From a virus (Duplodnaviria; Heunggongvirae; Uroviricota; Caudoviricetes): a stretch of 47,442 nt of DNA. The position numbers were made by a program. The stretch lies in IMG/VR virus record IMGVR_UViG_2913112809_000004, positions 1 to 47,442 of that record; one strand, written 5' to 3'. Below are positions 6,001-9,000 of the stretch, piece by piece; within the stretch, counting starts at the first letter, position 1, and every line of letters begins with the position of its first letter.

Positions 6001-9000
6001 GACCGGGCATTCCTGCGCTAAGGTTCGTGCACTTTACAGGCTGGTCTTTTGGTACTGAGGTAATGACCTGCGTCACAGTCCCTTCCGGTACAGCCCATGA
6101 TCCTGACGTTGTAGCCACACAGTAGACTGGCTCAGTCTGCCCGCTTTCTGGTACCACCGTATCGCGGGAAACTGCATACTGGTAGTTACCGTCACCAACC
6201 ACAAACCCTTTAGGGATGCCAAACCCCGGCAACGCCTCAAACACCACGTATACCGCCGTATTTGTACTTAATCCCTTCTGTGCTCCATAAATGTTTCCGA
6301 GTTGCATCAGTAACGGAATATTCGCGCCGTATGGGCTTACGGAGTTAATAAGATCAATACGCGCCTGGTCTATTAATGCCAGCGCCCCGACTGCCGTGCT
6401 GGCAAGGTCTGTAATAAGTCCCGCCGGAAGGTTGGCTGTATATCCAGGTACTTTTTCAGCAACTCTGGTGATAAGATTTGCGAGTAAATCATTGGGTGGC
6501 GTAGGCTGCGCACCCGCACTGGTCATAGTAATTGGTATTTCTGACATAATTAATCTCAAGAGGATTTTATGAAATTTAACTCATTAGGGATTTTGATTAG
6601 CTCACTGCTATTTTCTGGTGTTTCTCATGCAATTGATGCCACAGAGAGAATGAATGACATTCAACAGTTCGGTAAATGGTATTATGCTGAGTTTACCATG
6701 CCTACCACTATGGCTTATCGTATTGGTGTTGAATCCAAATTGCCGCAGGATAAATCAACTTTATTTATTGATATATCACCGTTAACTCAATGTGAGCCCG
6801 GTGATGTTACTGTCAATCATTTTATTGGATATAAACAAATGGATTTACCACCGTTCCTTCCTGTAAGCTATAAAATCAGTGGACAACAAAAGCAGGACTC
6901 TATAACAACCCCATCTATCAATGAAGGTTACTTGTTCAGTCCTATTAGCTCATTAAAGATTAGTGATTTGTTAAAAGCTAAAGGGAAAGGTAGTTTTTCT
7001 TTTTGGTACACTCCGCCAGCTGAAAGCAAAGAAAAACCACAAAAAATATTCTTCCCATTAGATGGCCTCCCGGAGGCATATAAGGCTGCAATAAATTCCT
7101 GTAAAGAAAACATGTAAAATCAGGCGGTAATTATTTATGATGCACGCCTTTCTCGAAGTAGGTAAACGCTTTGCTACTTGGATCACCGAGCGAATCAGCG
7201 AGTATGAATTCGTAGAAAATCAGGACTTTTTGATTATTTTCCAAAATCGGGAAAAAATAGATAGAAGCAGACCAGCTAAAGACTACCACCTCACCCTGGA
7301 CACCGCCAAAGAACTGGCAATGGTCGAGAGCAACGAAAAAGGCCGCCAGATCCGCCGATACTTCATCGAGTGCGAGAAGAAGCTGCGCGAAGAAACCACC
7401 AGCACACAATCCCCTCTGAATGTTGACATCATCATGCGCGTCAGAAACGGTTCTGTTACCCAGATTGAGCACCACAAATCAGGCTCAGTTATCACAATAG
7501 AATTGGCAATTCACTTACTACGCAAAAGTGGATGGATTGCCATGCCTTGCGATGAACTTCTTGACACCCCCTGGCACAACTGATGCCCGAGAACTTGCCT
7601 CAAACCGGAACCTGCGTCCGGTAACTGGTTCCGTTAAAAAACACAACATCAACGTTATAGGTGGGGTTCTCTGCCCCATCTACCTTTGAAATTGCCAGCG
7701 ATGCAAAATACCCGGCAAACTGTTGCTGAACCATGTTCACGTAGTAGTCCGGGTAAATCTGCTGCACGATGCACTGCTGCGCTGGAATACCGTAATTCGC
7801 GTAAAACGGCGACTCCCCCAACCCCAGCTTTAACGTCTGAATGAGCGTCGTCAGCCAGCCGTAGGAGAAATCACCGCTGGCGTCAGATTCTACTGCAACC
7901 CATTTTTTGTTGCCGTTCGCGTCGGTGACGCGGCCCCATGTTCTCATCGTGCCCTCACCACCATCGGATCTGGCCAACAAAATAACCAGACGCCAGAATC
8001 AGAAAGACCAACCAAATAAGCAAAAACTTCCAGGTGGATAATTTTTCAGCCATAACTCGAATCTCCCGAATCAGTTTGCTAAAATCAAACACGACTTCTC
8101 CTTGCCTTATTCAAGGTCAGAAACAAAAAGCCCCGACTGCTGCAACAGTTCGGGGCTTTCGCTTTATGGATAGAATTTAAAGTGAAATAAACCGGTATTA
8201 ACCCGGATTTGGTTGCTTCGACGTGATCGTGCTGCCGCCGCTTTGAACGCCAGTCACATCGTGGCTGTGGCCGCTGGCGCTCACGCCGTTGATAACTGCA
8301 TCTTTCTCGACCTTGAGAGGGCCAATCAGCGAAGCGGTTGTATCCTTCATTTGTTCTTTGTCCTGGACGATTGGACCGTTGAGATGAATTTTCCCGTTCA
8401 TGAAGATATCTTCGGCCTCGAGGTAAACAGCTTTCGACTTTAGCCTAATTTCTTCCGGTGCCACCGTTACCGAGCTACTGCCGTCCTCTGTTTTGAGGAT
8501 CGCGCCATCTGGACCGTACAAAACGATTTTTTGCGGATCTTCGTCGGACCAGTCCTTGTTTGCCAGTGGCACGAAAAACAGTGGAGTGAGCGACATCGAG
8601 TAAGAGAGCGTCGCCATACCGGTTCCCAACCCGGACACACCGCGCAGGGATACATCAGCGGCAATTGTTACTCCTCGATCGCCCGGCTGTATCGGGTAAC
8701 GGATATACGGGAATGTGGCGACAGGGATTGTTATCTGCGGAAAGTTGATCCCCTCCGGCAGCATATCAAACTGAACTGTCACTATCTGCCCGCTGACACC
8801 GACAACATGGCAGGGCAATTCACGACCTTTAAGCTCGGCTTGCTGGTTACCAGAACTGGTCATCATCTCCGACAGCGTTCGGAGAAACGGTAATTTTTGA
8901 GCGTTTGACATTACACCCTCGCCCAGTTCTCAGCATATGCCTCGAATACCGTCACCCAGGCATCGCCATCGGCTGTCAGATACGAACCAATATGTCTGAC

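What the first reader, a model, noticed from the sequence alone, without database searches (positions are those of the whole stretch)
6547..7600. Opposite-strand moron cassette (secreted protein plus AntA-like antirepressor fragment) inserted inside the baseplate operon
A plus-strand pair interrupts the minus-strand operon between the gp25/W-like gene (7600-7947) and the J-like gene (start 6547).

The first gene encodes an AT-rich 182-aa protein with a textbook signal peptide (…LLFSGVSHA|IDA). The second encodes a 148-aa AntA-domain protein that seems to lack the usual N-terminal 20-30 residues of the domain.

The first gene's ATG (6569) is only 21 nt from the divergent J-like ATG, so its promoter must lie inside the J-like coding sequence.

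Lysogen-expressed secreted morons in tail operons often mediate superinfection exclusion, serum resistance or other host-fitness traits. An antirepressor-domain gene here could affect the immunity of co-resident prophages.
Basis: partly seen in the sequence, partly recalled or inferred. Interest (0 to 1): 0.5.

Follow-up and report, generated by a model that had tools for sequence, protein, structure and literature searches.

The report
Accessory-gene slot in prophage baseplate operon
Two opposite-strand genes really do interrupt this E. coli prophage's baseplate operon: a well-conserved exported protein of unknown function and a decaying remnant of an antirepressor gene, which is an ordinary kind of phage cargo site.

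Summary
ORF1 (6569-7117, 182 aa) and ORF2 (7137-7583, 148 aa) lie on the + strand between the minus-strand 115-aa gene and the J-like gene.

More distant phages of Shewanella, Klebsiella and Yersinia have these two tail genes overlapping by 4 nt. The cassette is therefore a true insertion.

About 88 of 5,426 complete E. coli genomes carry this J allele, and the site holds different cargo among them. ORF1 is in 19 genomes, an unrelated 179-aa exported protein in 25, and an HSDR_N nuclease-domain gene in 28.

ORF1 is an old, selected resident:
- It always sits 21-29 nt divergent from J, in four genera.
- dN/dS is 0.09-0.20.
- GC is 34-37%, against about 50% for J.
- It has a signal peptide and two invariant cysteines.

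ORF2 is a remnant. An 817-bp deletion removed a second exported-protein gene, an sRNA-Xcc1-type leader and the first 28 ant codons. The window also carries a 3' frameshift and excess amino-acid changes.

No convincing promoter or terminator was found. Any function, such as exclusion of other phages, is inferred and untested.

The parts
5321..6547 (-). J-like baseplate gene (408 aa). It forms the left border of the slot, and its N-terminus is intact.
   Evidence: It matches Pfam Baseplate_J PF04865 at E 1.7e-07 and phrog_6 (baseplate wedge). It aligns from residue 1 with the J proteins of the more distant phages.
6548..6568 (.). The 21-nt divergent spacer between the J ATG and the ORF1 ATG. It holds ORF1's AGAGGA ribosome-binding site.
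   Evidence: Read directly from the sequence. The spacer is 21-29 nt in all nine relatives compared.
6542..6550 (+). Weak candidate extended -10 element, TGaCATAAT, overlapping the J start codon. It is a lead only.
   Evidence: The position-weight scan scores it 6.2-6.5 bits, which is the top 0.1% of window positions. About two such hits are expected by chance in the stretch scanned, and it is not conserved in distant relatives. The stricter consensus scan found no promoter.
6569..7117 (+). ORF1: a 182-aa exported protein of an uncharacterised family (phrog_31333) with an IalB-like fold. It is the functional part of the cassette.
6569..6631 (+). The part of ORF1 that encodes the signal peptide (residues 1-21, with cleavage predicted after SHA).
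   Evidence: It fits the -3/-1 rule by inspection. The same layout occurs in all 39 family members, and W37, C75 and C178 are invariant.
7118..7140 (+). Spacer plus ribosome-binding site and ATG(A), inherited from a deleted 154-aa exported-protein gene (rac61 in phage Rac-SA53). The deletion junction lies at about 7140|7141.
   Evidence: Alignment with Rac-SA53 and with full-length ant alleles.
7137..7583 (+). ORF2: a remnant of an AntA-family gene (148 aa). It is truncated at the 5' end and frameshifted near the 3' end, and is probably a pseudogene.
   Evidence: It matches Pfam AntA at 83 bits. It lacks 28 N-terminal codons compared with the 185-aa alleles. The window lineage has 9 non-synonymous and 5 synonymous private changes, against 0 and 12 in pPE4.
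7566..7570 (+). Site of a 1-nt deletion in a run of C. It replaces the conserved C-terminus ...NTPLAQLMPENLPQTGTCVR with ...DTPWHN*.
   Evidence: It is unique to the window among 13 alleles compared. A sequencing error in the homopolymer run cannot be excluded.
7600..7947 (-). The 115-aa baseplate-module gene, which forms the right border of the slot. It is 'W/gp25-like' by position only.
   Evidence: It matches phrog_7986 (unknown function) at E 4e-63 and has no Pfam hit. Its homologues overlap the J start in the more distant phages.

Best explanation
The stretch 6548-7599 is a cargo slot inside the baseplate operon of a Rac-SA53-type E. coli prophage, which combines lambdoid early genes with a contractile-tail module. 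It lies between the 115-aa gene and J, two genes that overlap in more distant phages.

Shown:
- The slot carries different cargo in different prophages.
- In this window it holds one intact, selected gene and one decaying gene.
- ORF1 encodes a 182-aa protein with an N-terminal signal peptide, two invariant cysteines and an IalB-like beta-sandwich fold.
- ORF1 has occupied the position next to J since before these tail modules diverged to about 55% protein identity. It has stayed AT-rich and under purifying selection.
- ORF2 is what remains of an 'sRNA-Xcc1 leader + ant' unit. An 817-bp deletion fused ant codon 29 to the start codon of a lost neighbouring gene. In this window ORF2 is decaying further.

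Inferred:
- ORF1 is exported by the Sec pathway to the periplasm and forms a disulfide bond there.
- ORF1 is made from the repressed prophage and acts at the cell envelope. Its most likely role is to interfere with infection by other phages, as other envelope-located tail-operon morons do.
- Late tail transcription must read through the cassette in antisense to reach J and the fibre genes.

I put the anatomy and history at about 0.85 and the envelope-level anti-phage function at about 0.35.
For: Insertion: in Shewanella phage vB_Sb_QDWS, Klebsiella phage Chronis and Yersinia phage vB_YenM_29.18, the 115-aa homologue's stop overlaps the J start, and the gene order on either side is the same. 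The J N-terminus is intact here.

Variable cargo: about 87-89 of 5,426 complete E. coli genomes carry this J allele. ORF1 is in 19 genomes, an unrelated 179-aa exported protein in 25, and a 385-aa HSDR_N nuclease-domain gene in 28. Further cargo after ORF1 includes AntA, Bro-N, a ProQ-like gene and a YafO toxin pair.

ORF1 is an old resident:
- In 20 or more loci it is always 21-29 nt divergent from J.
- It is the only gene in the slot in L007, L022 and L023.
- Its divergence from distant relatives (50-60% identity) is similar to that of J (54-65%).
- dN/dS is 0.09-0.20.
- GC is 34-37% in all relatives.

ORF2 is decaying. The sRNA-Xcc1 motif lies 25-37 nt upstream of nearly every intact ant or Bro-N gene in this slot (in L018/L019 it overlaps the annotated Bro-N start) and is absent from the window.

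Read-through: no terminator-like site was found on either strand in 5800-8300.

Precedent: HK97 gp15 is a tail-operon moron that is expressed from the prophage, sits in the envelope and excludes superinfecting phages (PMC3594210).
Against: - There is no evidence on transcription. No consensus sigma-70 promoter or intrinsic terminator was found, and only weak promoter candidates at chance level lie upstream of ORF1.
- ORF1 has no sequence or fold link to any known exclusion or defence protein. PADLOC gave nothing.
- The only structural relative, IalB, is tied to host-cell invasion, not to phages.
- ORF1 identity does not track the identity of J or of the tail fibre. L016 and L020 have J at 92% but ORF1 at 66-71%. 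L018 has J at 54% but ORF1 at 79%. Rac-SA53 has ORF1 at 98% but the fibre at 64%. So there is no sign that ORF1 is matched to a receptor specificity.
- The truncated ant is not clearly dead in every lineage. pPE4 against TUM1881 gives dN/dS of 0.016, and the secondary deletions are in frame.
- The window's frameshift lies in a homopolymer run and could be a sequencing error.
Confidence: 0.6

Rival explanations
1. ORF1 is a lysogenic-conversion factor for the bacterium's dealings with its animal host, such as adhesion, invasion or envelope stress tolerance. On this reading it works like Bartonella IalB rather than against phages.
For: - IalB raises erythrocyte invasion and is located in the envelope (PMC4568041).
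- Carriers are mostly gut isolates from pigs, cattle and sheep, including ETEC and STEC strains.
Against: - There is no sequence-level membership of the IalB family.
- IalB's molecular activity is unknown, so the fold predicts no mechanism.
- The best matches among viral models are uncharacterised proteins of virulent T4-like phages, which have no lysogens to convert.
- The same slot holds a nuclease-domain gene in other prophages.
Confidence: 0.15
2. ORF1 is a phage function used during infection or lytic growth. It might be a periplasmic partner or inhibitor of the tail-borne lytic transglycosylase, giving protection against lysis from without. On this reading it stays with the tail module for that reason and is not expressed in lysogens.
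For: - Its position next to J is fixed across four genera, and its divergence is comparable to that of the baseplate proteins.
- It always occurs together with the 620-667-aa SLT-domain tail protein.
- No stand-alone promoter or terminator was found.
- Proteins with an IalB-like fold occur in virulent T4-like phages.
Against: - It is dispensable. About four fifths of E. coli prophages with a J allele at least 95% identical lack it and carry unrelated cargo.
- It lies on the strand opposite to the late operon, so late transcription produces its antisense.
- Distant family members sit beside toxin-antitoxin genes and other accessory genes, not tail genes.
Confidence: 0.15
3. The shortened AntA protein is still made and functional. 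It would be co-transcribed with ORF1 and translated from the ribosome-binding site and ATG it captured.
For: - The 817-bp deletion is in frame, and ORF2 keeps 63 of the 68 AntA profile positions.
- The same allele persists in at least seven independent records.
- pPE4 against TUM1881 gives dN/dS of 0.016 at dS 0.18.
- The later 21-nt and 66-nt deletions are also in frame.
Against: - The window allele has 9 private amino-acid changes at residues that are otherwise invariant (W to L, R to C, R to S and others) against 5 silent changes.
- The window allele also has a frameshift that removes the conserved C-terminus.
- L017 has a premature stop.
- NCBI's annotation marks two sister alleles as partial pseudogenes.
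- The native leader has been lost.
Confidence: 0.15
4. Neither ORF is a real gene, and the stretch is non-coding filler or an annotation artefact.
For: No promoter or terminator was found.
Against: - ORF1 keeps a length of 182-183 aa in all 13 close clusters.
- It has 51 representatives among 1.84 billion proteins.
- dN/dS is 0.09-0.20, and it gives a confident fold.
Confidence: 0.02

Closest known systems
The HK97 gene 15 moron, a tail-operon moron that encodes an envelope-located superinfection-exclusion protein (Cumby et al. 2012, as reviewed in PMC3594210)
   Same: - Both are extra DNA wedged between tail genes that are adjacent in relatives.
- Both differ in composition from the flanking genes.
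- Both encode a small protein targeted to the envelope.
- The rest of the tail operon continues beyond the insert.
   Different: - HK97 gp15 is a small inner-membrane protein of the YebO type with a demonstrated exclusion phenotype. ORF1 is a 161-aa mature soluble-type beta-sandwich protein with no tested phenotype.
- ORF1 lies on the opposite strand.
- No promoter or terminator could be identified for it.
Bartonella IalB (PDB 3dtd; Pfam PF06776)
   Same: - Both have a signal peptide and an envelope location, and both are about 180 aa long.
   Different: - Identity is only 12%, and no Pfam IalB hit appears even at E of 10 or less.
- IalB is a chromosomal gene of alphaproteobacteria linked to erythrocyte invasion.
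- ORF1 is prophage cargo in Enterobacteriaceae.
Antirepressor units controlled by a small RNA (P1 c4-ant, P22 sar-ant; from my own knowledge of these systems)
   Same: In relatives, the intact unit in this slot is a structured RNA motif (Rfam sRNA-Xcc1) placed 25-37 nt upstream of an AntA or Bro-N gene on the same strand.
   Different: - The RNA family differs. No C4 match appeared in the scans, and the only sar match, at window 8127-8159, is far below the gathering score.
- Whether the motif regulates ant is untested.
- In this window the RNA and the ant start have been deleted, so the unit is not present.
Hotspots of anti-phage cargo between conserved structural genes of temperate phages (for example P2-like phages; from my own knowledge of the literature)
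   Same: The location between conserved genes is fixed, and closely related prophages carry interchangeable, unrelated cargo there, including a nuclease-domain gene.
   Different: No occupant of this slot matches a PADLOC defence model, and no defence phenotype is known for any of them.

Membership tests
Moron (as defined in PMC3594210, after Juhala et al. 2000) | Extra DNA between two genes that are adjacent in related phages | tested here: met
   The 115-aa gene's stop overlaps the J start in Shewanella, Klebsiella and Yersinia phages that have the same module order.
Moron (as defined in PMC3594210, after Juhala et al. 2000) | Base composition different from the surrounding genes | tested here: met
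   ORF1 has 36.4% GC against 49.1% for J. The figures are 34-37% against 49-54% in nine relatives.
Moron (as defined in PMC3594210, after Juhala et al. 2000) | Its own promoter and terminator | tested here: inconclusive
   The consensus scan found no promoters and no terminators in 5800-8300. The position-weight scan gave only weak candidates at chance level, the best being TGaCATAAT at 6542-6550.
Moron (as defined in PMC3594210, after Juhala et al. 2000) | Expression from the repressed prophage | not testable with these tools
   This needs RNA-seq or reporter fusions in the lysogen.
AntA/AntB antirepressor family (Pfam PF08346), for ORF2 | Domain match above Pfam's gathering score | tested here: met
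   The match scores 83.2 bits against a cut-off of 27 and covers profile positions 6-68 of 68.
AntA/AntB antirepressor family (Pfam PF08346), for ORF2 | The full-length architecture of the intact alleles in this slot: 185 aa, with the domain at residues 22-89 and a conserved C-terminus | tested here: not met
   The first 28 codons were lost in an 817-bp deletion. The last 20 residues (NTPLAQLMPENLPQTGTCVR) are replaced, through substitutions and a frameshift, by the 6-residue ending DTPWHN.
AntA/AntB antirepressor family (Pfam PF08346), for ORF2 | Antirepressor activity | not testable with these tools
   The name comes from annotation. No activity is known for this subfamily.
IalB family (Pfam PF06776), for ORF1 | Sequence match to the family profile | tested here: not met
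   None of the 13 members gave an IalB hit at E of 10 or less. A profile search of PDB sequences did not find 3dtd.
IalB family (Pfam PF06776), for ORF1 | IalB fold | tested here: met
   [not shown]
Known superinfection-exclusion or defence proteins, for ORF1 | Homology to a described exclusion or defence protein | tested here: not met
   PADLOC, Pfam and NCBIfam gave no match, and its PHROG family has no known function.
Known superinfection-exclusion or defence proteins, for ORF1 | Exclusion phenotype | not testable with these tools
   This needs plating assays.
gp25/W baseplate wedge family, for the 115-aa neighbour | Sequence match to GPW_gp25 | tested here: not met
   There is no Pfam family at E of 0.01 or less and no PDB sequence match. 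Only its position directly upstream of J fits.

The most novel reading that the evidence does not exclude
ORF1 founds an unrecognised family of phage-borne periplasmic proteins with the IalB fold. It would act at the envelope against incoming phages, and the junction between the 115-aa gene and J in this tail module would be a dedicated anti-phage cargo hotspot. The alternative occupants of the slot (a 179-aa exported protein, an HSDR_N nuclease and toxin pairs) would then be further untested defence genes.
Probability: 0.3. Interest if true: 0.55.

Novelty: new member of a known kind. Interest (0 to 1): 0.3.

Why it matters
If ORF1 proves to block phage entry, it would give the IalB fold its first molecular role. 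That fold has been known since 2008 without a mechanism. It would also add a soluble periplasmic class to the exclusion proteins, which are so far mostly membrane proteins or lipoproteins.

The slot is also a convenient natural experiment. Near-identical prophages carry three or more alternative cargoes at one junction.

As it stands, the finding is an ordinary prophage accessory site with one uncharacterised gene and one pseudogene.

Tried and rejected
- Sequence-level family assignment of ORF1 found nothing beyond an unnamed PHROG. This covered Pfam (up to E of 10 on 13 members), NCBIfam, PADLOC and a PDB profile search.
- The first structure model, built from 13 sequences, reached only pLDDT 67. 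I repeated it with 39 sequences and obtained pLDDT 90. IalB was the top match both times.
- The afdb50 fold library was not available.
- The genome-contig scan with the close family found no confirmed relative. Alignments A4 and A5 were too diverse for pattern scans.
- I looked for ORF1 being matched to receptor specificity. Its identity tracks neither J nor the tail fibre, so I dropped the idea of a receptor-matched exclusion gene like T5 llp.
- I looked for a conserved promoter in the divergent spacer. The TGaCATAAT motif is limited to close E. coli relatives.
- I looked for a known RNA in the cassette. The window has none, and the matches at 8117-8208 are far below their gathering scores.
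- Contexts of distant family members (20-30% identity) came from short contigs beside toxin-antitoxin, Schlafen-like and PGA-hydrolase genes. This is suggestive of accessory regions but not informative on function.
- A literature search for Rac-SA53 and for IalB in phages found nothing on this gene.
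Full report
**Observation**

- ORF1 lies at 6569-7117 on the + strand (182 aa).
- ORF2 lies at 7137-7583 on the + strand (148 aa).
- Both lie between the minus-strand 115-aa gene (7600-7947) and the J-like gene (5321-6547).
- The ORF1 ATG and the J ATG are 21 nt apart.

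J matches Pfam Baseplate_J. ORF2 matches Pfam AntA at 83 bits over profile positions 6-68 of 68. ORF1 and the 115-aa protein have no Pfam family. In PHROGs, ORF1 is a full-length member of phrog_31333, and the 115-aa protein belongs to phrog_7986. Both families have unknown function. GC falls to 35-39% across ORF1, against about 50% on either side.

**Where the window comes from**

The structural module is about 96% identical to 'Actinobacillus phage vB_Apl-pPE4' and about 95% identical to Escherichia phage Rac-SA53. It is also found in many E. coli chromosomes. The pPE4 record shows Rac-type early genes (RecT, RecE, Kil, a DicA-like repressor, YdaT) joined to a contractile-tail module.

**Is it an insertion?**

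Yes. A tblastn search with the 115-aa protein finds more distant phages: Shewanella vB_Sb_QDWS, Klebsiella Chronis, Yersinia vB_YenM_29.18 and Pantoea PdC23, at 45-54% identity. Three of them (the Shewanella, Klebsiella and Yersinia phages) were inspected, and they have the same gene order:
- an SLT-domain protein
- a protein of about 230 aa
- one of about 90 aa
- one of about 335 aa
- one of about 235 aa
- one of about 112 aa
- J

In these phages the stop of the 112-aa gene overlaps the J start by 4 nt. The window's J aligns with theirs from residue 1, and the length difference is an internal domain. The borders of the insert are therefore exactly the stop of the 115-aa gene and the start of J.

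**The slot carries variable cargo**

Among 5,426 complete E. coli genomes, 87-89 carry this J allele at 95% identity or more. The cargo counts are:
- ORF1 in 19 genomes.
- An unrelated 179-aa protein with its own signal peptide in 25 genomes, including E. coli W. It is split into two ORFs in strain TUM9757.
- A 385-aa protein on the tail-operon strand, carrying the HSDR_N nuclease domain, in 28 genomes.

I inspected only a few loci of each type, so the assumption that every copy lies in this slot is an extrapolation.

**ORF1 is an old, selected occupant**

The close family has 13 clusters, all 182-183 aa except two 175-aa sequences from short contigs. They come from E. coli, Salmonella, Citrobacter and Buttiauxella. 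In every locus recovered that includes J, the gene sits 21-29 nt divergent from J. In three distant relatives (L007, L022, L023) it is the only gene in the slot, ending 17-222 nt from the stop of the 115-aa gene.

Its identity to these relatives (50-60%) is similar to that of J (54-65%) and of the hub protein (46-54%). The two are not locked together, however:
- L016 and L020 have J at 92% but ORF1 at 66-71%.
- L018 has J at 54% but ORF1 at 79%.
- Rac-SA53 has ORF1 at 98% but a 64%-identical fibre.

Alleles therefore recombine at this site.

dN/dS against relatives is 0.09-0.20. GC is 34-37% in all of them, against 49-54% for J. An exhaustive profile search finds only 51 representatives among 1.84 billion proteins. 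Most full-length members are about 170-205 aa, and the 39 aligned all have a signal-peptide-like start. W37, C75 and C178 are invariant. The distant members I could place lie beside toxin-antitoxin, Schlafen-like or PGA-hydrolase genes, not beside tail genes.

**Fold of ORF1**

Among viral models, the best matches are uncharacterised proteins of T4-like phages. An annotated IalB protein of Sphingobium phage Lacusarx ranks 14th. No sequence method links ORF1 to IalB. IalB promotes erythrocyte invasion and is located in the envelope, but its molecular activity is unknown (PMC4568041). The fold therefore supports an envelope location and gives no mechanism.

**ORF2 is a remnant**

Rac-SA53 carries three genes in the slot: the 182-aa gene, a 154-aa gene with its own signal peptide, and, after a 280-nt spacer, a 185-aa ant. 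The alignment shows that the window and pPE4 share an 817-bp deletion. It joins the ribosome-binding site and ATG(A) of the 154-aa gene to ant codon 29, with the junction at window 7140|7141. This 162-aa allele recurs in TUM1881 and in four IMG/VR contigs.

Other lineages have decayed further:
- one has an added 21-nt deletion;
- one has a further 66-nt deletion and is marked as a pseudogene by NCBI;
- one has a premature stop (L017);
- one has an IS2 insertion upstream.

The window alone has a 1-nt deletion at 7568 that replaces the conserved C-terminus. It also has 9 private non-synonymous changes against 5 synonymous ones, at residues that are otherwise invariant. pPE4 has 0 and 12.

There are two caveats. 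First, pPE4 against TUM1881 gives dN/dS of 0.016, so the 162-aa form may still be selected in some lineages. Second, two of the three indels that separate the window from pPE4 over 6.9 kb lie in homopolymer runs, so sequencing error is possible.

**What the deletion removed**

In relatives, nearly every intact ant or Bro-N gene of this slot has a solid match to Rfam sRNA-Xcc1 (RF02221) 25-37 nt upstream on the same strand. In L018/L019 the match overlaps the annotated Bro-N start. Most matches score 70-81 bits against a gathering score of 53, and three copies score 54-58. The window has none. An independent paper notes the same motif upstream of an ORF6N-domain gene in APSE phages. ORF2 has thus lost its native leader as well as its start.

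**Transcription**

The consensus scan finds no sigma-70-like promoter and no intrinsic terminator on either strand in 5800-8300. A position-weight scan gives only weak candidates upstream of ORF1. The best are TGGTCA-19-CATAAT, with an extended-10 TG at 6542-6550, and TTGCGA-18-TAGGCT. Both sit at about the top 0.1% of positions, a level at which about two hits are expected by chance. The motif is not conserved in distant relatives.

That the ORF1 promoter lies inside J is therefore an inference from the 21-nt spacing, not something the sequence shows. By the same logic, J and the fibre genes can be reached only by late transcripts that read through the cassette in antisense. The absence of terminator-like sites is consistent with that.

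**Interpretation**

The anatomy and history are well supported. This is a cargo slot in a baseplate operon, holding one conserved exported IalB-fold protein and one decaying ant remnant.

The function is inferred. Three things favour an envelope-level role in phage-phage conflict:
- the envelope location;
- the precedent of HK97 gp15;
- the company ORF1 keeps in this slot, which includes a nuclease-domain gene, toxin pairs and other exported proteins.

I rate that role at about 0.35. A host-interaction role and a lytic-cycle role remain open.

By the published definition of a moron, two features are met (extra DNA, foreign composition), one is inconclusive (own promoter and terminator), and one cannot be tested here (expression in lysogens).

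Noticed in passing
window 9311-9340 (minus-strand genes 9311-9919 and 8911-9321): The baseplate hub gene is a single 335-aa gene in Rac-SA53, pPE4 and others. In the window it is split into 202-aa and 136-aa ORFs by one extra T in a homopolymer run (T7 against T6 at about 9335). This is either an inactivating mutation, which would make the prophage defective, or a sequencing error.
   Followed up: partly
L001 4264-4347; L003 3364-3448; L004 5700-5783; L009 6195-6278; L016 6072-6157 and 6285-6370; L018/L019 6171-6254; L020 5658-5743; L005 6730-6833; L006 3612-3715: An Rfam sRNA-Xcc1 (RF02221) match lies 25-37 nt upstream, on the same strand, of nearly every intact AntA or Bro-N gene in this slot, across E. 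coli, Salmonella and Citrobacter prophages. In L018/L019 it overlaps the annotated Bro-N start. This suggests the motif is a leader or regulator of KilA-N-type 'antirepressor' genes. It is absent from the window because of the 817-bp deletion.
   Followed up: partly
L035-L037 4389-5549 (minus strand); 28 E. coli genomes: In other prophages with the same J allele, the slot holds a 385-aa stand-alone HSDR_N (type I restriction R-subunit N-terminal nuclease) domain protein on the tail-operon strand. It has no PADLOC match and is a candidate single-gene defence.
   Followed up: partly
L005 9828-11380; L006 6710-8262: The Salmonella relatives carry a second opposite-strand insert in the same tail module, between the hub gene and the 88-aa gene. 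It holds hok/sok plus two unknown genes, so this module has more than one cargo site.
   Followed up: no
whole window against PP818812.1 (L008): 'Actinobacillus phage vB_Apl-pPE4' shares about 96% identity with this window over the 21-kb structural module, and the slot region it shares with the window occurs at 92-97% identity in many E. coli chromosomes. The stated Actinobacillus host looks doubtful.
   Followed up: no
window 34455-34632 (minus strand); 31710-31863 (minus strand): There is a sok antitoxin RNA match (97 bits) elsewhere in the window, which implies a hok/sok module. There are also two adjacent tRNA genes, Gly-TCC and Thr-TGT.
   Followed up: no
L038 (CP100067.1, 47,704-bp circular 'plasmid' p727A3-47K): A record filed as a non-mobilizable E. 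coli plasmid has the same tail module, with ORF1 beside J. It is probably an excised or circular copy of this phage type.
   Followed up: no
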